This document shows positions 99 to 13,117 of a stretch of DNA of 34,185 nucleotides, piece after piece. A program made the position numbers and the translations under genes. Below the pieces are notes generated by a model. It worked only from the letters and a program-made list of their open reading frames with translations. It had not been told where the DNA came from and searched no databases. Every line of letters starts with the position of its first letter. The stretch's first letter is position 1. Origin of the DNA: Patescibacteria group bacterium (GTDB lineage: Bacteria; Patescibacteriota; Minisyncoccia; Moranbacterales; UBA1568); the NCBI GenBank assembly GCA_030916545.1, contig JAUPWI010000003.1, forward strand, positions 1 to 34,185, read 5' to 3'.

Positions 99-123
99 AC
101 CGTTATACCCGACTTTTTTGAGA

Positions 124-208
124 GAATGGGAGAAGAAACTTCTCTTTTTTCTTGCGACGTGTTCGGAAACACCAGCATCAAAAAAAGAGAAGTTTCCTCT
201 CACATTCT
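124..208 (+). repeat. Long hairpin repeat A (apex variant 1a, forward)
   Basis: Arms 124-151 and 181-208 pair at about 26/28 positions. Apex 152-180 is CTTGCGACGTGTTCGGAAACACCAGCATC, flanked by T6 and A6 runs. Confidence 0.85.
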
Positions 209-317: not shown

Positions 318-393
318 GGAGGGTGGCTTTGGCTTTTTTCCGATGCTGGTGTTTCCGAACACGTCGCAAGGAAAAAAGTCAAAACCACCCTCC
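318..393 (-). repeat. Long hairpin repeat B (apex variant 1a, reverse)
   Basis: Apex 342-370 (GATGCTGGTGTTTCCGAACACGTCGCAAG) is the exact reverse complement of the A apex. Arms GGAGGGTGGCTTTGGCTTTTTTCC and GGAAAAAAGTCAAAACCACCCTCC pair with 2 mismatches. A T-run follows at 395-400. Confidence 0.85.
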
Positions 394-1428: not shown

Positions 1429-1506
1429 AGGATGTGGTAAGGTATTCTTTCCCGATGCTGGTGTTTCTGAACACGTCGCAAGGGAAAGAATACCTTACCA
1501 CATCCT
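1429..1506 (-). repeat. Long hairpin repeat C (apex variant 1b, reverse)
   Basis: Perfect 24-bp arms AGGATGTGGTAAGGTATTCTTTCC / GGAAAGAATACCTTACCACATCCT. Apex 1454-1482 is GATGCTGGTGTTTCTGAACACGTCGCAAG. Confidence 0.9.
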
Positions 1507-1579: not shown

Positions 1580-1655
1580 GGAAGGATAATTGCTCTTTTT
1601 TCCTTGCGACGTGTTCAGAAACACCAGCATCGGAAAAAAGAGCAATTATCCCTCC
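1580..1655 (+). repeat. Long hairpin repeat D (apex variant 1b, forward)
   Basis: Arms GGAAGGATAATTGCTCTTTTTTCC / GGAAAAAAGAGCAATTATCCCTCC pair at 23/24. Apex 1603-1631 is CTTGCGACGTGTTCAGAAACACCAGCATC. Confidence 0.9.
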
Positions 1656-1744
1656 TTCACGTTTCGGACACCTATCGTATCCCATAGTATCGTGCAGCAA
1701 TGCGCTGTTTTTGATACAGAATGTTCCTTCTAGTTGCTTTTTTG

Positions 1745-1799
1745 GCGCCTCGTATTTTTCTGAACACGTTGTAAGGGAAAGGATACTTTACCACATCCT
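1745..1799 (-). repeat. Truncated hairpin repeat E (paralog of C, left arm lost)
   Basis: The right half aligns to C (…TTCTGAACACGTTGTAAGGGAAAGGATACTTTACCACATCCT). No complementary left arm is present. Confidence 0.7.
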
Positions 1800-1900
1800 G
1801 AAGTGAACATAAAGAGCGCTCTTTACTGATGCATCAGGTCAGTAAAAGGAATATGATTTTTTCAGAAATGCTTTTCCTATGAGATTTGAGATAGATACTA

Positions 1901-1976
1901 AGGGAGTGAGGCTCCTCTTTTTTCTTGCGACGTGTTCAGAAACACCAGCATCAAAAAAAGAGAAGTCTCACTCCCT
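1901..1976 (+). repeat. Long hairpin repeat F (apex variant 1b, forward)
   Basis: Apex 1924-1952 is identical to the D apex. Arms AGGGAGTGAGGCTCCTCTTTTTT / AAAAAAAGAGAAGTCTCACTCCCT pair with about 3 mismatches. Confidence 0.85.
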
Positions 1977-2044
1977 CCATACTTGAGAAACCTTCTGTCT
2001 TAAAGTGTACGAATGATGGAGTGTAGAAATATATTCCTGATGAA

Positions 2045-2125
2045 GCGGAAGGCACTCTCTTGCTTTTTCTGATGCCCCGTATTTCCGAATACGCAGCAAG
2101 GAAAAAGGAAGAGAGAACCTTCCGC
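2045..2125 (-). repeat. Long hairpin repeat G (apex variant 2, reverse)
   Basis: Apex 2071-2100 is GATGCCCCGTATTTCCGAATACGCAGCAAG. Arms GCGGAAGGCACTCTCTTGCTTTTTC / GAAAAAGGAAGAGAGAACCTTCCGC. Lies 35 nt beyond the dnaE stop codon. Confidence 0.85.
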
Positions 2126-2159
2126 ATAGAGACCGTAAAAGGAACTTTTTGAAAATATG

Positions 2160-5100
2160 TTATCCGACTGATTCGACACCCTGGAGCGCACGTATCTGTT
2201 CGAGGGTCGCTTCTTCAGGATCTATGTAGAAGGGTGTATCGATGGTCGTGCCGTGTATCTTGACGAGGACTTTCGTTTCCCCTTTCGGAACGGTTCGAAG
2301 AAAAGCCGAGAGTTCACTGATTAATTTTGCATCTGTTTGTTCCTGAAGGGTAATCAGAAGTTTTGGAGTCGAGGTAGCATTTTCGTCCATTTGAGTCTTC
2401 TCTGAAGCAGATTTTTCACGGGTGATGCGTACGCGTTCGAATTGCGTCAGGGTATCGAGAGAGAGACGTTCAGCGCTTTCGGCAATGCAACGGAGTTGAC
2501 CATCCTTGTGTGAAACTCGGGCATCAATAAGTACGATATCATCTTCTTTCCAGAAACCATCGGTCTGCTCGGCCGTTTTGCCGAAGACGAGGACTTCAGT
2601 CCGACCAGTGAGATCCTCGAGACCGATGAAAAACATCGGATGACCGTTTTTGGTGATCATACGTCTGACTGATGTGACGATACCGCCGATACGGACCCGA
2701 CTTTCGTTTTCTTGTTTTTCTATGTCGATGAGAGCCGTGGTGGTTTCTTTCAAGTAATGACGGTAATCGGAGGCTGGATGTCCAGTAACATAGAGTCCGA
2801 GGAGTTCCTTTTCCCAGGTAAGACGTTGTTGTTTGGAGGCTGGGATAGCTCGTGCGAGATTGATTTTTGTCTTGGGAAGTGGCATAGAGCCAAAAAGACT
2901 GTCGGTATGTGTCTCGGCAAGAGTAGAGGATTGTTTTCCGTAGCGTATGATGGCGTCGATGCTCTCAAGAATTTGTTCGCGTTCACCCAGGGTGTCAAGT
3001 GCTCCAACCTTCGTCAGCGCTTCGACTGATTTTTTGTTAAGATCCTTGGTCTGGACGCGTTCGACGAAGTCTTCGAGACTTTTGAATTTCCCGCCACGCT
3101 TCCGTTCCTTGACGATCTCTTCCGCACAGACCGAACCGACATTCTTGATCGCCTGAAGACCGAACCGGATGCGCTCGATATCGTCGTCTCCCTGGATGAC
3201 CGCGAAGCTCTCGAAGCTTTCATTGATATCTGGTTGTAGAACATCAAGGCCGATTTCGCGTGCTTCTCGTACTTCGATAGCGATGCGGTCGGTATCGTTC
3301 TGATCGCTTGTCAGGAGCGCGGCCATGAATTCGGCTGGATAGTGGGCCTTGAGATAGGCGGTCTGATAACCGATCATCGCGTAGCAAGCGGCGTGAGATC
3401 GGTTGAAACCATAGCCAGCAAACGGTTCGATGAAGGCGAAGACCTGTTCGGCGACGTGTTTGGTGATGCCGTGCTTGACGCAGCCCTCGATGAATTTGAT
3501 GCGTTGTTCGGCGACGAGTTCTTTGATTTTCTTTCCGACGGCTTTGCGGAGCACATCGGCTTCGCCGAGCGAGAAACCGGCAAGGTCGCGGGCGATCTGC
3601 ATAAGCTGTTCCTGATAGACGGCGACGCCGTAGGTGTTCTTCAGAATCGGTTCGAGTTTCGGGTGGAGATATTCGATTTGTTTGGTGCCGTGCTTGCCGC
3701 CGATGAAATCGGGGATGTATTCCATTGGTCCTGGGCGGTAGAGTGCGACCATGGCGATGATATCCTCAAAGACCGTTGGCTTGAGCTGTTTCAGGTAGCG
3801 CTTCATGCCGGTCGATTCGAGCTGGAAGACGCCGGTCGTCCGGGCTTCCTGGAGCACCCGATAGGCCCCCTCATCATCGATCGGCAGCTTGTCCATCACA
3901 TCGGAAACGGAGGCGGTATCCGGGTCGAGCCCGAGCTCATGCGCCAGCGCTTCGAATTTGCCGAGCGCGCGGACGATGCGAAGGGTGTTTTGGATGATGG
4001 TGAGGTTTTTGAGACCGAGAAAATCCATCTTGAGGAGACCGATCTTTTCGACGGCATTATTCTTGGTCGAAGCGGCATACTGGGTGACGACGCCTTCGCG
4101 TGAACCGGAAATCCGTTGAAGGGGGGTGTATTCGGTGACCGGGTCCTTGGTGATGACGACGCCGCAGGCATGCATCGAGGCATGACGGGCCAGCCCTTCG
4201 ATCTTCTGGGCATTGTCGACGAGGCGGCGGACTTCGGCATTGCCTTCGTAATGCGTCTTGAATTCCGGAACTTCCTCCAGCGCCTTCCTGATGGAAGTAA
4301 ACATCGGGATCATTTTGGCGGTCTGGTCGCAAAGAGACAGTGGTATGCCGAGCGCGCGACCGACATCGCGGATCGCACCGCGGGCGGCCATGGTTCCGAA
4401 GGTGATGATTTGTGCGACGTGGTCGGCCCCGAAACGTTCGCGGACGTAGTTTAGGACGTCTTCGCGATGATCATCGGCGAAGTCCATGTCGACATCGGGC
4501 ATGGAGATACGTTCTGGATTGAGGAAGCGTTCAAAGAGGAGATCGTATTGGATTGGGTCGAGGTTGGTAATGCCAGTCAGATAGGCGACGAAGGAACCGG
4601 CGGCCGAACCGCGGCCTGGACCAACAACGACGCCGTTGTCTTTCGCCCAGTTGACGAAGTCCTGGACGATGAGGAAGTATGATGCAAAGCCAGTCTTTCC
4701 GATGATATCGAGCTCGTAGTTGAGGCGAGTGAGCTGTTCTTCCGTCGTCGGAGCATCGCCGAAACGTTCTTTGAGTCCCATTTCGCAGAGCTGGCGCAAA
4801 TAGCCATCGGGGGTGACGCCTTCCGGAAGCGGATACACAGGTAGGTGATTGACCCCGAAGGTGAAGGAGAAATGACAGGCATCGACGATTTTTTGGGTAT
4901 TCTCGATAGCATCCGGAAAGTCTTTAAAAATCTCAATCATCTCTTCGGAGCTCTTGAGTGAGAGGTCAAGCGACATCATAGAGAATCGGTCACGGTCCTC
5001 AACACGTTTGTTATCCCGGATGCAGAGGAGTGTGTCTTGGATACTGGCGTCTTCGCGGCGGACATAGTGCACGTCATTCGCAGCGACGAGAGGAATATTC

Positions 5101-5690
5101 GTCTCCCGTGAAAGCGCGATGAGGCCTTGGTTGACCGCCGCCTGTGTCTCGTGATCGAAATGCGGCTGGATTTCAAGGTAGAAGTTACCCGCTCCAAAAA
5201 TATCCTGGTATTCGAGAGCAGCGAGTTTGGCGCGATCATAGTCACCATAGATGAGCTCGGAAGGCACTTCTCCTTGAAGCGATCCGGACAAGGCGATGAG
5301 TCCCTCGCTGTATTGTCGGAGGAGTGCTTTGTCGGTTCGGGCTTTGTAGTAGAAACCGTCGAGCTGTGCGATGGAAATGATCTTGAGGAGATTTTTATAG
5401 CCGGTCTCGTTTTTGACGAGGAGCACGATAGTGTGCCGACGGCGGTCTTCGGCCGTATTGTTCTTACTGTGAAGATCGTGACAGACGTACATCTCGGCTC
5501 CGATGATTGCCTTGATTCCGTAATCCTTGGCTTTGGTATAAAACTCAACCGCTCCGTACAGAGCCGAGGTATCGGTCAGGGCGAGCGAAGTCTGCCCGAG
5601 TTCTTTGGCGCGTGCTAAAAGTTCTTCTGGCCGGCCGAGTGCGGTCAAAAGAGTGTAATGCGAGTGGACATGGAGGTGGGTGAAGTTCAT
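2160..5690 (-). CDS. dnaE: DNA polymerase III alpha subunit (DnaE)
   Basis: 1176-aa ORF. N-terminal PHP motif FTHLHVHSHYTLL, a Pol IIIalpha core (…MPDVDMDF…), and a C-terminal OB-fold region. Confidence 0.95.
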   Translation of the reverse strand: MNFTHLHVHSHYTLLTALGRPEELLARAKELGQTSLALTDTSALYGAVEFYTKAKDYGIKAIIGAEMYVCHDLHSKNNTAEDRRRHTIVLLVKNETGYKNLLKIISIAQLDGFYYKARTDKALLRQYSEGLIALSGSLQGEVPSELIYGDYDRAKLAALEYQDIFGAGNFYLEIQPHFDHETQAAVNQGLIALSRETNIPLVAANDVHYVRREDASIQDTLLCIRDNKRVEDRDRFSMMSLDLSLKSSEEMIEIFKDFPDAIENTQKIVDACHFSFTFGVNHLPVYPLPEGVTPDGYLRQLCEMGLKERFGDAPTTEEQLTRLNYELDIIGKTGFASYFLIVQDFVNWAKDNGVVVGPGRGSAAGSFVAYLTGITNLDPIQYDLLFERFLNPERISMPDVDMDFADDHREDVLNYVRERFGADHVAQIITFGTMAARGAIRDVGRALGIPLSLCDQTAKMIPMFTSIRKALEEVPEFKTHYEGNAEVRRLVDNAQKIEGLARHASMHACGVVITKDPVTEYTPLQRISGSREGVVTQYAASTKNNAVEKIGLLKMDFLGLKNLTIIQNTLRIVRALGKFEALAHELGLDPDTASVSDVMDKLPIDDEGAYRVLQEARTTGVFQLESTGMKRYLKQLKPTVFEDIIAMVALYRPGPMEYIPDFIGGKHGTKQIEYLHPKLEPILKNTYGVAVYQEQLMQIARDLAGFSLGEADVLRKAVGKKIKELVAEQRIKFIEGCVKHGITKHVAEQVFAFIEPFAGYGFNRSHAACYAMIGYQTAYLKAHYPAEFMAALLTSDQNDTDRIAIEVREAREIGLDVLQPDINESFESFAVIQGDDDIERIRFGLQAIKNVGSVCAEEIVKERKRGGKFKSLEDFVERVQTKDLNKKSVEALTKVGALDTLGEREQILESIDAIIRYGKQSSTLAETHTDSLFGSMPLPKTKINLARAIPASKQQRLTWEKELLGLYVTGHPASDYRHYLKETTTALIDIEKQENESRVRIGGIVTSVRRMITKNGHPMFFIGLEDLTGRTEVLVFGKTAEQTDGFWKEDDIVLIDARVSHKDGQLRCIAESAERLSLDTLTQFERVRITREKSASEKTQMDENATSTPKLLITLQEQTDAKLISELSAFLRTVPKGETKVLVKIHGTTIDTPFYIDPEEATLEQIRALQGVESVG

Positions 5691-5785
5691 GTAATGGGAG
5701 ATACTGGATTCTTGATTTTTGAATTTTTCTCAGGTTGAGTATCGAATATCAGAGTTTATTCGGTTTTGTGTCTAAAGGCCGAAAG

Positions 5786-5822
5786 GGGCTTTTTCTTTGC
5801 TGCGTATTGGTGAGGCACCGAC
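5786..5822 (+). repeat. Decayed hairpin-repeat remnant H1 (variant 2 apex with deletions)
   Basis: CTTTTTCTTTGCTGCGTATTGGTGAGGCACCGA aligns to the H3 apex but with indels. No 3' arm is present. Confidence 0.55.
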
Positions 5823-5855
5823 AATCTGATTGTGTCTTGAGAAGATTCAAAACAA

Positions 5856-5892
5856 CTTTTTCTGATGCTCCTGTATTCGATGACGCGAAGGA
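5856..5892 (-). repeat. Decayed hairpin-repeat remnant H2 (variant 2 apex, reverse)
   Basis: CTTTTTCTGATGCTCCTGTATTCGATGACGCGAAGGA aligns to the G apex, but the apical helix is disrupted. Confidence 0.55.
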
Positions 5893-5912
5893 TATCGGAA
5901 ATTCATTTTTAC

Positions 5913-5995
5913 TTTCGAAGAGTAGAAGTGACTTTTTCCTTGCTGCGTATTCGGAAATACGGGGCATCAGAAAAAGTCACTTCTACTCTTCGAAA
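5913..5995 (+). repeat. Long hairpin repeat H3 (apex variant 2, forward)
   Basis: Perfect 25-bp arms TTTCGAAGAGTAGAAGTGACTTTTT / AAAAAGTCACTTCTACTCTTCGAAA. Apex 5939-5968 (CTTGCTGCGTATTCGGAAATACGGGGCATC) is the exact reverse complement of the G apex. Confidence 0.9.
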
Positions 5996-6148
5996 CATTT
6001 TTTCAACAAAAAATCGCACCAAAATGGAGCGAAAGAGAATTCGAAACTGGGTATTCGAGGTTGGACATGATGATGGTTTCTCTCAGCGCCCGGATCGCTC
6101 CATGGGGTTTGCAGAGAAGCTTAGGATAAGCCCAGTATATCATTTTTT

Positions 6149-6193
6149 GAAAAAAAAGAAACCCCTGGCAGCGATGTTGCTGACTGCCAGGGG
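6149..6193 (-). terminator. Intrinsic terminator (minus strand)
   Basis: 10-bp GC-rich stem CCCCTGGCAG (6162-6171) / CTGCCAGGGG (6184-6193). On the minus strand it is followed by TTTCTTTTTTTT. Confidence 0.7.
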
Positions 6194-6456
6194 TGGGTAC
6201 TGCGAGAATACTACTAGAGAGTACTACTCTTCCCGAAACGCGCACTGGCGTCTGGGGGGGGGTGCTACGGGCGGGTGTTGCCATACTGCGTTTGGGTGCC
6301 GCCTCAGATATGATGGAGTGTCCCGGCACGGACTTCTCCAAAAAAACCTAATCGCTCTAAAAGGTATTACACTTTCTTGCGCCCGTTCCGTCCTTCGAGA
6401 CGTTCGGGGTGTTACGCCGTTTTGCGCCGCATCGCCAACTGAGTGAGCTTGACGAG
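6149..6456 (-). ncRNA. Candidate ~300-nt structured non-coding RNA of unknown class
   Basis: A GC-rich, hairpin-dense island in a 940-bp gene-free spacer. Minus-strand extended -10 TGGTATAAA (6462-6470) lies upstream and the terminator at 6149-6193 downstream. Local hairpins include GGAGAAGUCC…GGACACUCC and CCGAACGUC…GACGGAACGG. ORFs through the region look like nonsense. Confidence 0.35.
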
Positions 6457-6657
6457 CGGTATTTATACCAGATATTTTTTTAAGAATACCAGGAAGCCAG
6501 GAAACATTACGTCAGAACTTGAAAATAGCCCTGTTACTACCTTCAAAGGACATCCTAGCATATGGATGGATTTTTGTCAAGGGCAACTGGCAGTATTGGC
6601 TTATAGAAGGGATAATTTACTTTTTCAGAAAGCGTGAAGATACGGTATACTGGATAC

Positions 6658-11692: not shown

Positions 11693-13117
11693 ATGAAAAG
11701 CTTCAATATTTATTTGTTTTTGGTGTATCTTTTTCTGCTACCGTTACAAACGGTGTATTTGTTGCGTGAGCCGATGATTAGTGGGGAGAAGTGGCAGTAT
11801 GGGACTATTGGCATTTATGCTACGGATATTTTGCTGATTCTGATACTTGGATGGTATGGCGTGAGTCGATGGAAGAAGCAGGGTAATATTGAGGGACGAA
11901 GACGTTGGTTGGCGCGTTTGGCTGGAGCGCGAAAACAGCTTTTTCTGATGCCCTTTGCTTCCGAGCAAACAGCAAGGAAAAAGTTCGTTTTTGTGCTCCA
12001 GCATGCGCTGAATCCGTGGTCTCTGAAACGAAGTATCTTCTGTATCAGTTTCATTCTTTGGGCCGGCCTCTCGATATTTTGGGCGCCTGATCGGGTGTTG
12101 GCCGGATACTTTTTCGTAAAGCTGCTTTTGGCGGTCGGAGTCTTCTTTCTGATTCGTTCATTCGGCAGGCGGGAAATAGGCCTGATCATAACAGTGCTCT
12201 TCATGGGAGCGGTACTCGTGAGTGTGTTCGGCATCGGGCAATTCTTGCTGCAAGGCGCATTCGCTTCGTCGTGGCTCGGGATGAGTGGACAGGAAGCGTG
12301 GCAAGCCGGGACATCGGTACTCAAGAACGAAGCTGGTCGTTGGCTGCGGGCGTATGGTACGTTTCCGCACCCGAATATGCTCGGGGGGTATCTTAGCGTC
12401 GTCTTGGTCTTGGGAATAGGGTATCTTACGCAATCGGCACTTTCGATTAAGAAACGATTGCTTTTCGAGGGAGGGGGCATTGTCATCCTCCTTGGTCTCG
12501 TCCTCACTTTTTCTCGTACGGCGTGGCTGGGGATTGTACTCGGGATTACCCTGGTGGGATTTCATGCCTGGAGAGAGCGCGAACCCCGGATCCAGAGGCG
12601 GTTTTTGCAAGTCGTTTTCGCGCTCGGATTAGCCGGACTCGTTTTTGGATCCATTTTGCACGAGCAGATTTTTCCGAGATTCGATACTGCGACAATCGGG
12701 CAGGAAGGTTCGGTAGCGGAGCGGGTCGTATCGTTTCAGGACACCTGGACGCTTATCGGGAAGCACCCCTTCATCGGTGTCGGTGTCGGGAATTCCACGG
12801 TACAACTCATGAAAGAAAATCCCGGTCGTCCGATTTGGGGAATCCAGCCGGCACACAATGTCCCTCTCGTCATTTGGTCAGAGCTCGGCCTGATCGGACT
12901 CTTCCTGTGTATCGGATGCACAGCGTCTTTTTTATTTTCGCTTTCGAAATTTGCGATCTTTGACCTTCAGTCTGCGATTTTCATCGCGCTTCTCCCAAGC
13001 CTCTTCTTCGATCACTGGCTCTGGACCTCGCATTCCGGTCTCGTATTTCTTTTCTTGTCGTTCGGACTGATACGAAGCAGGCATGGTGGCGAGGGTATGA
13101 GACCGGATGGTGATTGA
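11693..13117 (+). CDS. O-antigen ligase-like (Wzy_C) membrane protein
   Basis: Polytopic. Has FSRTAWLG and PAHNVPL motifs typical of the O-antigen ligase family. ATG at 11693 (TTG at 11687 is in frame). Carries hairpin repeat I in frame. Confidence 0.75.
   Translation: MKSFNIYLFLVYLFLLPLQTVYLLREPMISGEKWQYGTIGIYATDILLILILGWYGVSRWKKQGNIEGRRRWLARLAGARKQLFLMPFASEQTARKKFVFVLQHALNPWSLKRSIFCISFILWAGLSIFWAPDRVLAGYFFVKLLLAVGVFFLIRSFGRREIGLIITVLFMGAVLVSVFGIGQFLLQGAFASSWLGMSGQEAWQAGTSVLKNEAGRWLRAYGTFPHPNMLGGYLSVVLVLGIGYLTQSALSIKKRLLFEGGGIVILLGLVLTFSRTAWLGIVLGITLVGFHAWREREPRIQRRFLQVVFALGLAGLVFGSILHEQIFPRFDTATIGQEGSVAERVVSFQDTWTLIGKHPFIGVGVGNSTVQLMKENPGRPIWGIQPAHNVPLVIWSELGLIGLFLCIGCTASFLFSLSKFAIFDLQSAIFIALLPSLFFDHWLWTSHSGLVFLFLSFGLIRSRHGGEGMRPDGD
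11921..12002 (-). repeat. Hairpin repeat I (apex variant 3, reverse) inside a coding sequence
   Basis: Apex 11948-11977 is GATGCCCTTTGCTTCCGAGCAAACAGCAAG. Outer arms GCTGGAGC…/…GCTCCAGC pair imperfectly. Translated as …ARKQLFLMPFASEQTARKKFVFV…. Confidence 0.75.

What the first reader, a model, noticed from the sequence alone, without database searches (positions are those of the whole stretch)
2045..5995. dnaE is bracketed by identical variant-2 apices in inverted orientation with unrelated stems
The G apex (2071-2100, 35 nt past the dnaE stop) and the H3 apex (5939-5968, about 250 nt upstream of the dnaE start) are exact 30/30 reverse complements. Their 25-bp stems share no similarity. An identical centre with unrelated palindromic flanks is hard to explain by duplication and decay. 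It argues for apex-specific copying or gene conversion, or for strong selection on the apex. The spacers flanking this essential replication gene (780 bp and 940 bp) are very long compared with the otherwise tight gene packing.
Basis: partly seen in the sequence, partly recalled or inferred. Interest (0 to 1): 0.62.

Follow-up and report, generated by a model that had tools for sequence, protein, structure and literature searches.

The report
Hairpin repeat pair flanking dnaE
The two identical sequences either side of the DNA polymerase gene are two copies of a small hairpin-forming repeat found only in a few Moranbacteria (tiny-genome CPR bacteria); its centre is frozen by selection while its stem drifts, and the flanking of dnaE is a recent local accident, not a conserved device.

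Summary
Window 2063-2107 and 5932-5976 are exact reverse complements over 45 nt, not 30. This covers the apex plus the inner 7-8 bp of each stem (CTTTTTC/GAAAAAG). Only the outer ~17 bp of the stems are unrelated, and stem G is imperfect (22/25 pairs).

Both are members of an ~80-nt hairpin-repeat family with no Rfam match. I found it in only ~7 Moraniibacteriota MAGs. Across 43 copies the outer stem and a 5-6-bp apical mini-helix covary strongly. A T-run, CTTGC, a CRGA loop, GCATC and an A-run are nearly invariant.

Orthologues explain the "identical centre, unrelated arms" pattern. The apex stays 29-30/30 identical between genomes whose dnaE four-fold sites are only 43-68% identical. Over the same distances the stems diverge, often by compensatory changes. 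In one relative whole 90-nt palindromes are the copied unit. The same centre is kept in genomes that hold only one of the two copies, so no apex-only copying is needed.

The bracket is not conserved. Two genomes have both copies, others have only one, and two related lineages have none.

RNA contigs show H3 lies in an abundant transcribed stretch between a conserved dnaE leader and the start codon. G was not detected in four of eight RNA runs.

Inversion of dnaE could not be tested.

The parts
2045..2125 (-). Hairpin G, 34 nt downstream of the dnaE stop. Its forward (CTTGC..GCATC) reading lies on the minus strand. The stem has three non-Watson-Crick positions out of 25.
   Evidence: orthologues in L005, L033 and L034
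2063..2107 (-). 45-nt conserved centre of G (T-run box + variant-2 apex + A-run box)
5913..5995 (+). Hairpin H3, with a 26/26-bp stem, 222 nt upstream of the dnaE start. A T6 run starts 2 nt after it on the + strand.
   Evidence: orthologues in L007, L014 and L034
5932..5976 (+). 45-nt conserved centre of H3, the exact reverse complement of 2063-2107
   Evidence: assembles as a separate 45-nt contig at about double depth
5786..5822 (+). H1: decayed variant-2 copy (keeps CTTTTTC-TTTGCTGCGTATT)
   Evidence: read directly from the sequence
5856..5892 (-). H2: decayed variant-2 copy in the opposite orientation. Its left arm (5836-5858) resembles the arm of the L014 H3 orthologue.
2160..5690 (-). 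dnaE (DNA polymerase III alpha, 1176 aa)
6000..6133 (-). Conserved dnaE leader: extended -10 (TGnTATACT), a ~45-nt hairpin and a terminator-like hairpin plus U6. It is present even in relatives that lack the hairpin repeats.
5791..6009 (.). Stretch recovered as a discrete 219-nt exact RNA contig at depth 20 (strand unknown). It contains H1, H2 and H3.
   Evidence: X49; supported by X25/X26/X27/X47
123..208 (+). Family copy, variant 1
318..393 (-). Family copy, variant 1
1429..1506 (-). Family copy, variant 1 (C)
1580..1655 (+). Family copy, variant 1 (D)
1745..1799 (-). Half copy (E), a paralogue of C's right half
1901..1976 (+). Family copy, variant 1 (F)
11921..12002 (-). Family copy, variant 3, inside the Wzy_C/O-antigen-ligase-like ORF

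Best explanation
G and H3 are the two intact survivors of a small local subfamily (variant 2; H1 and H2 are its decayed members) of a Moranbacteria-specific ~80-nt hairpin repeat.

Shown:
- Whole hairpins are the unit that gets copied.
- The 45-nt centre is held nearly invariant. It comprises an A/T box, a CUUGC/GCAUC internal loop, a 5-6-bp mini-helix and a CRGA loop.
- The long lower stem only has to pair. It diverges, often by compensatory changes, until two copies share nothing but the centre.

Inferred:
- The centre is the part recognised by a trans-acting factor (protein or enzyme). The lower stem is a structural spacer.
- Arm-to-arm templating (quasipalindrome template switching) and/or selection keeps the arms complementary.
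- Orientation carries no meaning. Inverting a palindromic element is the same as flipping its apex, and such a flip is seen at an orthologous site.
- The elements act as transcribed stem-loops. H3 sits in an abundant RNA between the dnaE leader and the start codon, most likely as an RNA-end, terminator or processing hairpin.

The bracketing of dnaE is a by-product of local accumulation of repeats in two permissive spacers. It is not a device acting on dnaE.
For: - Family and structure. 43 copies from the window and ~7 Moraniibacteriota MAGs align with invariant central columns and variable arms. The covariation score is 0.553 against 0.17-0.19 for slid controls, and 0/500 shuffles reach it. 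Compensatory changes are seen in 17/20 outer-stem pairs and 5/9 pairs of the apical helix (TGC/GCA clamp plus mini-helix).
- Frozen apex. The v2 apex is 30/30 in L005_G and L033_G and 29/30 in L007_H3, L014_H3, L034_H3 and L034_G. dnaE four-fold identity to the window is 0.64, 0.61, 0.43 and 0.68 for L005, L007, L014 and L034.
- Stems drift. By my own reading of the alignment (not computed), H3 arms are ~65-70% identical to L007 and about half identical to L014. The D stem against L014 shows 3 compensatory, 1 uncompensated double and 3 single changes in 23 pairs. JAGOBM paralogue comparisons total 28 compensatory doubles against 15 one-sided changes with the apex unchanged apart from minor differences at its 3' edge.
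- Whole palindromes are copied. L003, L004 and L021 share 92-96-nt elements with unrelated flanks.
- No donor is needed. Single-copy genomes keep the same apex (L014 H3 only, L005 G only). In L034 the two copies differ at 2 sites.
- Local origin. The exact v2 centre was found only at dnaE flanks in the GTDB representative genomes and the JGI metagenome contigs. The best-matching DNA runs (X1-X3), presumably the source population, show only H3 and G flanks on the core.
- The bracket is not conserved.
- Apex flip. At the orthologous site in L001 the apex is in the opposite orientation.
- RNA. X49 gives an exact contig 5791-6009 at depth 20 with nothing else from the locus. X47 gives 5741-6148 at depth 9.7 and 5632-5770 at depth 20, against 2.5 inside dnaE. 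X26 gives 5692-6139 at depth 14.
- Templating mechanism known elsewhere: quasipalindrome template-switch mutation in E. coli (PMC7202029).
Against: - The trans-acting partner is unidentified and no function was tested.
- RNA evidence comes from unstranded contigs of related strains.
- Among close relatives the stem changes are mostly single, pair-breaking substitutions. Stems at that scale differ by only ~6%. This may reflect recent recombination tracts: the hairpin-rich spacers are 96-100% identical between strains whose synonymous sites are 32-36% diverged. That makes the rate comparisons less clean.
- The stem > spacer > apex substitution gradient inside the window-L005 tract is not significant (10/166, 9/292, 2/122).
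- Decay of H1, H2 and the L005 copy shows that not every copy is maintained.
Confidence: 0.68

Rival explanations
1. Apex-specific copying or gene conversion. The 45-nt centre moves or is homogenised between pre-existing, unrelated hairpins. In particular, G's centre was overwritten from the H locus or the reverse.
For: - The 45/45 identity is bounded exactly by the family-wide A/T boxes, which could delimit a conversion patch.
- Recombination within apices does occur. L033 carries a hybrid hairpin made of the F arm, an apex and the D arm, with the interval deleted.
- G's outer arm resembles arms that carry class-I apices (D, L008; z 3.5-4.8 before correction for ~40 comparisons).
- G appears to be absent from the outgroup L014, whereas the H locus is present there.
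Against: - The same v2 centre persists unchanged in genomes with a single v2 copy, so there is no donor.
- In L034, G and H3 have different private substitutions and no shared derived ones.
- No orthologous pair was found with the same arms but a different apex class.
- In JAGOBM the arms travel with the apex.
- 12-13 nt of flanking homology is short for RecA-type conversion (established knowledge).
Confidence: 0.12
2. The pair is a functional bracket for dnaE. It might be an invertible-segment switch using the inverted 45-mers. Alternatively it might be a 5'UTR-3'UTR pairing or insulating device that controls expression of the replicative polymerase.
For: - Inverted exact 45-mers flank a single essential gene.
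- H3 lies in a transcribed leader region.
- Earlier unchecked notes report other hairpin families around rnhB-dnaE-miaA in other Moranbacteria. These are leads only.
Against: - The bracket is present in only 2 of the 5 lineages where both sides could be read.
- All assembled relatives keep the same miaA-dnaE-rnhB orientation.
- G's arms were never seen flanking the core in four RNA runs that do show H3.
- No recombinase gene was noticed beside the locus, but most window ORFs were not annotated.
- Each centre is sequestered in its own very stable hairpin (-46 to -53 kcal/mol).
Confidence: 0.05
3. The elements are purely selfish miniature mobile elements with no host function. The centre is conserved only because it is the binding site of the mobilising enzyme (REP/RAYT-like or HUH-type). 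G and H3 are simply recent insertions.
For: - Dispersed copies in many intergenic sites, in both orientations and at both 5' and 3' gene ends.
- Near-identical copies in JAGOBM.
- Decayed copies lie next to intact ones.
- A strand bias exists. G.T/G.U wobbles are favoured on the GATGC..GCAAG strand (53 vs 23; unique outer-stem events 32 vs 16, p=0.03). This is what a single-strand-specific enzyme would produce.
Against: - Element-level selection does not preserve individual old insertions. Yet orthologous copies keep 29-30/30 apex identity across saturated synonymous divergence.
- No target-site duplication.
- No transposase among the six L018 ORFs scanned between and around two copies there.
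- No copies on viral contigs.
- Whether a Y1/HUH gene is present could not be tested.
Confidence: 0.1

Closest known systems
REP/BIME elements and REPINs with RAYT transposases (PMC3116915, PMC3337134; GTAG/CGTC-tagged repeats, PMC3733652)
   Same: Short, dispersed, mostly intergenic palindromic repeats specific to a lineage. They often occur in oppositely oriented pairs, are transcribed with neighbouring genes, and are thought to act as RNA or DNA hairpins.
   Different: - The elements here are 76-96 nt, not 20-40 nt.
- Conservation is inverted. The apex and the inner box are invariant and the stem base is free, with no GTAG/CGTC tag at the stem end.
- No RAYT gene could be looked for.
Correia repeat-enclosed elements (CREE/NEMIS) of Neisseria (PMC2649163)
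   Same: ~100-nt hairpin-forming repeats next to genes. They are co-transcribed, and their long duplex can bind RNase III and be cleaved or protected by it, which changes expression of adjacent genes. This is the most likely functional analogy for a 25-bp RNA stem with an internal loop.
   Different: - CREE have conserved 26-bp terminal inverted repeats, a TA target duplication and a variable or deletable core.
- Here the ends vary, the centre is fixed, and no target duplication is seen.
- There is no sequence similarity. RNase III action was not tested.
Rickettsia palindromic elements (RPE)
   Same: Hairpin repeats of small-genome bacteria that can sit in frame inside genes. The variant-3 copy at 11921-12002 lies in a Wzy_C-type ORF.
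   Different: G and H3 are intergenic. RPE families are conserved along their whole length and lack a frozen apex with free stem (from memory, not tested here).
ssoA-type single-strand origins of rolling-circle plasmids, and phage T7 RNase III processing signals (own knowledge, not tested)
   Same: Long hairpins in which short loop or internal-loop motifs are conserved in sequence while the stems are conserved only as structure. ssoA function is strand-specific, which echoes the wobble bias seen here.
   Different: No sequence match and no replicon context. These are analogies for how the element could work, not a claim of membership.

Membership tests
REP / REPIN-RAYT | 20-40-nt imperfect palindrome with a conserved GTAG or CGTC tag at one stem end | tested here: not met
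   The elements are 76-96 nt. In the 43-copy alignment the only invariant or near-invariant columns are central (T-run, CTTGC, loop, GCATC, A-run). The outer stem columns vary.
REP / REPIN-RAYT | A single-copy RAYT (Y1 transposase) gene in the genome, usually flanked by the repeats | not testable with these tools
No transposase was seen among the few ORFs scanned next to copies.
REP / REPIN-RAYT | Copies organised as inverted doublets (REPINs) | tested here: inconclusive
   Oppositely oriented neighbours occur at 123/318, 1429/1580, 1745/1901 and H2/H3. Many copies in other loci are solitary.
MITE | Terminal inverted repeats conserved between copies, plus a target-site duplication | tested here: not met
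   Arms differ between copies in the window's clade. No consistent direct repeat flanks the JAGOBM copies, whose ends coincide with the palindrome ends.
Intrinsic (Rho-independent) terminator | Stable stem-loop immediately followed by a U-run on the transcribed strand | tested here: inconclusive
   - G has no T-run after the full hairpin on the dnaE strand. Only an arm-internal 6-bp hairpin plus T5 is present (2123-2107), and it is not conserved in L005/L033.
- H3 is followed by T6 after 2 nt on the + strand. An exact RNA contig ends at 6009, but its strand is unknown.
- JAGOBM copies are flanked by A6...T6.
Invertible DNA segment (site-specific inversion switch) | Inverted repeats flanking the segment, a nearby recombinase, and both orientations present in the population | tested here: inconclusive
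   - Inverted 45-mers are present.
- No recombinase was noticed next to the locus, but most window ORFs were not annotated.
- All assembled relatives share one orientation.
- Contigs built with 31-mers break at the 45-nt repeat, so minority orientations cannot be seen.
Any Rfam RNA family | Score at or above the family's gathering threshold | tested here: not met
   Only three tRNAs pass in the window. With lax thresholds the hairpins hit only generic miRNA-precursor models at 20-37 bits against thresholds of 50-170.
This Moranbacteria hairpin-repeat family (as defined here) | T-run + CTTGC + covarying 5-6-bp mini-helix + CRGA loop + GCATC + A-run, carried on a 20-30-bp self-complementary stem | tested here: met
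   G and H3 both match the defining pattern and fold as predicted (z -7.6 to -12.9).

The most novel reading that the evidence does not exclude
The frozen 45-nt centre is the docking site of an unidentified, lineage-specific protein or nuclease that reads one strand of the hairpin, and the repeats serve as portable RNA-end or processing modules. On this reading H3 is the terminal hairpin of an abundant ~220-nt RNA (5791-6009). That RNA lies in, or antisense to, the dnaE 5' UTR just downstream of a conserved attenuator-like leader. A mobile repeat would thus have been recruited into the control of the replicative polymerase in a CPR bacterium. New copies would regain perfect stems because one arm is templated from the other when the element is copied.
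Probability: 0.15. Interest if true: 0.7.

Novelty: new variant of a known kind. Interest (0 to 1): 0.38.

Why it matters
Small palindromic repeats are common in bacteria, but almost nothing is known about them in CPR bacteria. These organisms have tiny genomes and few recognised mobile elements.

This family reverses the usual conservation pattern: the apex is fixed and the stem is free. It also gives a clear natural example of a short helix and internal loop under strong constraint sitting next to a long helix that evolves by compensated change. This points to a specific but still unknown recognition partner.

For the finding itself the result is sobering. The striking "identical centres, unrelated arms" around dnaE follows from family-wide constraint plus local copying. 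It is not a dnaE-specific mechanism.

The by-products may be more useful than the bracket. These are a conserved attenuator-like leader in front of dnaE and an abundant hairpin-bearing RNA beside it.

Tried and rejected
- **Exact-protein look-ups of the window's DnaE and MiaA.** Neither is on record.
- **Viral contigs.** No copy of the family was found.
- **Rfam.** No family matched the hairpins or the leader.
- **Known RNA motifs, by eye.** I considered a K-turn or box C/D reading of CUGAUGC, a T-loop reading of GUUCGGAAAC, and a GEMM-like reading of GCAAACC in the leader. None fits the consensus or the Rfam scans, so I dropped them.
- **Similarity of CTTG/GTTC to HUH/IS91 nick or target sites.** Noted, but judged coincidental.
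- **Target-site duplications.** None were found.
- **Homology between G and H3 outer arms.** There is only a weak CG(G)AAG match and a reversed AAGAG..AGTG match, not significant after multiple comparisons.
- **Inversion junctions.** The contigs, apparently built from ~31-nt words (pieces overlap the 45-nt core by 30 nt and one is a 31-nt contig), break at the core.
- **Flip-flop polymorphism at H2/H3 from contig joints** (5857->5934; loose end at 5868). This is equally explained by two neighbouring copies with similar arms, as in L014, so I make no claim from it.
- **Orientation relative to transcription.** It is mixed among gene-proximal copies (my hand tally gives about 7 reverse and 5 forward), so the orientation gives no RNA-strand rule.
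- **Stem > spacer > apex substitution gradient within the window-L005 tract.** The trend is in the expected direction but is not significant.

Full report
**1. The observation**

The 30-mer CTTGCTGCGTATTCGGAAATACGGGGCATC occurs exactly twice in the window. The copies are at 2071-2100 (-) and 5939-5968 (+), and none is expected by chance. dnaE is the 1176-aa ORF 2160-5690 on the minus strand.
- G (2045-2125) ends 34 nt after the dnaE stop.
- H3 (5913-5995) begins 222 nt before the start codon.
- The spacers are 779 and 943 nt.

- The identity runs for 45 nt (2063-2107 against 5932-5976). It includes the inner CTTTTTC/GAAAAAG part of both stems. In metagenome assemblies X2 and X3 this 45-mer forms its own contig at about twice the depth of its flanks. 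The only other flanks seen on the core are those of G. Thus exactly two copies exist in the best-matching DNA runs, presumably the source population.
- Only the outer ~17 bp of the stems are unrelated.
- H3 is 26/26 paired, but G has three non-Watson-Crick positions out of 25.

**2. What the elements are**

The window holds at least eleven related units. A degenerate pattern scan of one genome per prokaryotic species returned 32 stretches. Of these, 29 come from about seven Moraniibacteriota MAGs, four of which are labelled "uncultured Bdellovibrionales". The other three look like chance hits. Viral contigs gave nothing.

Forty-three copies align with an almost invariant centre and variable arms. 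The centre is a T-run, CTTGC, a 5-6-bp mini-helix, a CRGA loop, GCATC and an A-run. Two apex classes exist (CTTGC-GA... and CTTGC-TG...). In the second class the mini-helix covaries: CGTATT/AATACG, TTTGCT/AGCAAA, TACGCT/AGCGTA, CATGTT/AACATG and others.

A formal count supports this structure.
- The covariation score is 0.553, against 0.17-0.19 when partners are slid.
- No shuffle out of 500 reaches the observed score.
- Both-sided changes occur in 17 of 20 outer pairs and in 5 of 9 pairs of the apical helix (the TGC/GCA clamp plus the mini-helix).

Both strands fold into the same long hairpin (-46 to -53 kcal/mol, z -7.6 to -12.9). Rfam has no matching family. The lax hits are generic miRNA-precursor models far below threshold. 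A literature search found no description of such repeats in Moranbacteria.

**3. Comparative evidence at the dnaE locus**

Six related dnaE loci could be read.

| Locus | Source | dnaE four-fold identity to window | Elements seen |
|---|---|---|---|
| L005 | JAYRFE | 0.64 | G, same arms; H3 only as a remnant |
| L033 | metagenome contig | 0.61 over 101 sites | G; upstream side not covered |
| L034 | Logan contig | 0.68 | G and H3 |
| L007 | CAYMZY | 0.61 | H3; downstream side not covered |
| L014 | CAYOHD | 0.43 | H3; no E-F-G block |
| L035/L037 and L038 | CAZOKB and an ENA contig | DnaE 83-84% amino-acid identity | no family hairpin or other strong hairpin beside dnaE |

Sources. CAZOKB does carry the family elsewhere (L009, L032).

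- *The bracket is lineage-specific.* Both copies occur only in the window and L034.
- *The apex is frozen.* It is 30/30 in L005_G and L033_G. It is 29/30 in L007_H3, L014_H3, L034_H3 and L034_G. A neutral 30-mer would have changed at roughly a third to more than half of its positions over these distances.
- *The arms are not frozen.* By my own reading of the alignment (not computed), H3 arms are about 65-70% identical to L007 and about half identical to L014, yet each version still pairs. The D stem against L014 shows three compensatory doubles, one uncompensated double and three single changes in 23 pairs.
- *In the JAGOBM genome whole palindromes recur.* Elements of 90-96 nt appear at unrelated sites (L003, L004, L021). 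Diverged paralogues differ mainly by compensated doubles, 28 against 15 one-sided changes, with the apex unchanged apart from minor differences at its 3' edge.

**4. Against apex-only copying or conversion**

- Genomes with a single v2 copy keep the same centre (L014, L005).
- In L034, G and H3 carry different private substitutions (AATATG; TTTGC) and no shared derived one.
- No orthologous pair shows the same arms with a different apex class.

Recombination inside apices does happen. L033 has an F-arm/apex/D-arm hybrid with the interval deleted. At the orthologous site in the Wzy-like gene, L001 carries the variant-3 apex in the opposite orientation. For a palindromic element, inverting the whole element and flipping only the apex are the same event. 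The "inverted orientation" of G and H3 therefore carries no information.

The exact v2 centre was found only at dnaE flanks in the collections scanned. H1 and H2 are two more decayed v2 copies. Variant 2 thus looks like a small, locally amplified subfamily.

**5. Function**

Positions and orientations relative to genes are mixed. Many copies lie 10-70 nt past a stop codon, and others lie in 5' regions.

Wobble statistics show a strand bias.
- A.C on the CTTGC strand, which is G.U or G.T on the GATGC strand, outnumbers the reverse by 53 to 23.
- Counting unique outer-stem events gives 32 against 16 (p=0.03).
- Part of the bias comes from a recurrent A.C just outside the A/T box in class II.

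This hints that one particular strand is the one that folds. The effect is modest and the copies are not independent.

Metatranscriptome contigs of related strains cover the H region well above dnaE.
- X26: 5692-6139 at depth 14.
- X47: 5741-6148 at depth 9.7 and 5632-5770 at depth 20, against 2.5 inside dnaE.
- X49: a single exact 219-nt contig, 5791-6009, at depth 20, with nothing else from the locus. DNA contamination cannot explain this.

That contig ends 14 nt beyond the base of H3, next to the T6 run. In four RNA runs the only flanks seen on the v2 core were H3-type arms or arms of other, non-G elements; G's arms never appeared. In other runs, contigs abut G on both sides at ordinary depth.

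H3 lies between dnaE and a conserved leader. The leader has an extended -10 (TGnTATACT), a ~45-nt hairpin with one covarying pair (U-A to C-G in L035 and L038), and a hairpin followed by U6. It is present even in L035 and L038, which lack the repeats. The H copies were therefore inserted into a pre-existing dnaE 5' region.

My best guess is that the hairpins act as transcribed stem-loops, serving as end-protecting, terminating or RNase III-type processing signals as Correia elements do (PMC2649163). The centre would be recognised by an unknown factor. This part is inference. The strand, the RNA ends and the partner are all unknown.

**6. Caveats**

Hairpin-rich spacers are 96-100% identical between strains whose four-fold sites differ by 32-36%. 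Examples are window-L005 at 1600-2100 and window-L034 at 1901-2100 and 5901-6123. Either these segments were exchanged recently or they are constrained as a whole. This blurs short-range rate estimates. Within the window-L005 tract, stems changed at 10/166 positions, spacers at 9/292 and apices at 2/122, a trend that is not significant.

Inversion of dnaE between G and H3 could not be tested. The contigs, apparently built from ~31-nt words, break at the 45-nt repeat. All assembled relatives share one orientation.

**7. Verdict**

The pair is an ordinary consequence of an unusual, apparently undescribed repeat family, not a device built around dnaE.

The family is closest in kind to REP/REPIN, Correia and RPE elements, but it fails the defining tests for REP (size, end tag) and for MITEs (conserved ends, target duplication). 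I file it as a new variant of a known kind.

Noticed in passing
window 6000-6133 (minus strand): Conserved dnaE leader: an extended -10 (TGnTATACT), a ~45-nt hairpin CUUCUCUGCAAACCCCAUGGAGCGAUCCGGGCGCUGAGAGAA with one covarying pair (U-A to C-G), then a hairpin plus U6. It is found in all seven related loci examined, including those without hairpin repeats, and has no Rfam match. It looks like an attenuator or riboswitch-type leader of the replicative polymerase gene.
   Followed up: partly
window 5791-6009: In run X49 this stretch is a discrete, exact 219-nt RNA contig at depth 20, while the dnaE body and the leader have depth 0. Other metatranscriptomes also show 3-8x higher contig depth here than inside dnaE. 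The strand is unknown.
   Followed up: partly
L033 830-915: Hybrid hairpin made of the F-type left arm, a variant-1 apex and the D-type right arm, with everything between F and D deleted. This is direct evidence of recombination between directly repeated apices.
   Followed up: partly
window 11921-12002 vs L001 984-1061: The same variant-3 apex sits at the orthologous site of the Wzy_C-type gene, but in flipped orientation and with a largely different stem. Downstream of it the L001 sequence no longer matches the window gene, so this may be a rearrangement breakpoint.
   Followed up: partly
window 1580-2300 (vs L005); 1901-2100 and 5901-6123 (vs L034): Non-coding, hairpin-rich segments are 96-100% identical between strains whose dnaE four-fold sites are only 64-68% identical. 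This points to recent recombination tracts or to constraint on the whole segment, including the F-G spacer 1977-2044.
   Followed up: partly
L003, L004, L010, L015, L017, L018, L021 (JAGOBM genome): A subfamily of 90-96-nt palindromes with an A6...T6 outer frame and a constant inner stem. An ~8-10-bp window in mid-stem differs between copies, largely through compensated changes.
   Followed up: partly
family-wide, stem position just outside the A/T box (e.g. window 2062/2108 in G): Class-II copies with unrelated stems repeatedly show GAAAAAG-C on the 3' side opposite an A on the 5' side. This is a recurrent A.C mismatch, which would be G.U on the other strand, at the same position.
   Followed up: no
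window 6149-6470 (minus strand): GC-rich ~300-nt segment ending in a strong terminator (CCCCTGGCAG...CTGCCAGGGG + T-run). It is partly conserved in L014, absent from L005 and has no Rfam hit.
   Followed up: no
window 2107-2123 (minus strand): G's own arm forms a small hairpin GGAAGG-TTCTC-TCTTCC followed by T5 on the dnaE sense strand. This is terminator-like and was created by the same substitutions that weaken the long stem. It is not present in L005 or L033.
   Followed up: partly
L002, L007-L009, L011-L014, L023, L027, L032, L035: MAGs deposited as 'uncultured Bdellovibrionales' (CAYOHD, CAYMZY, CAZOKB, CAZDRG) share dnaE at 83-97% amino-acid identity, synteny and this repeat family with Moraniibacteriota MAGs. 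The taxonomic label is probably wrong.
   Followed up: no
L018 3048-3137 and 6150-6241: Two near-identical copies in the same orientation flank rmlC, rmlB and an unknown ORF, with rmlD after the second copy. No transposase lies between them.
   Followed up: yes
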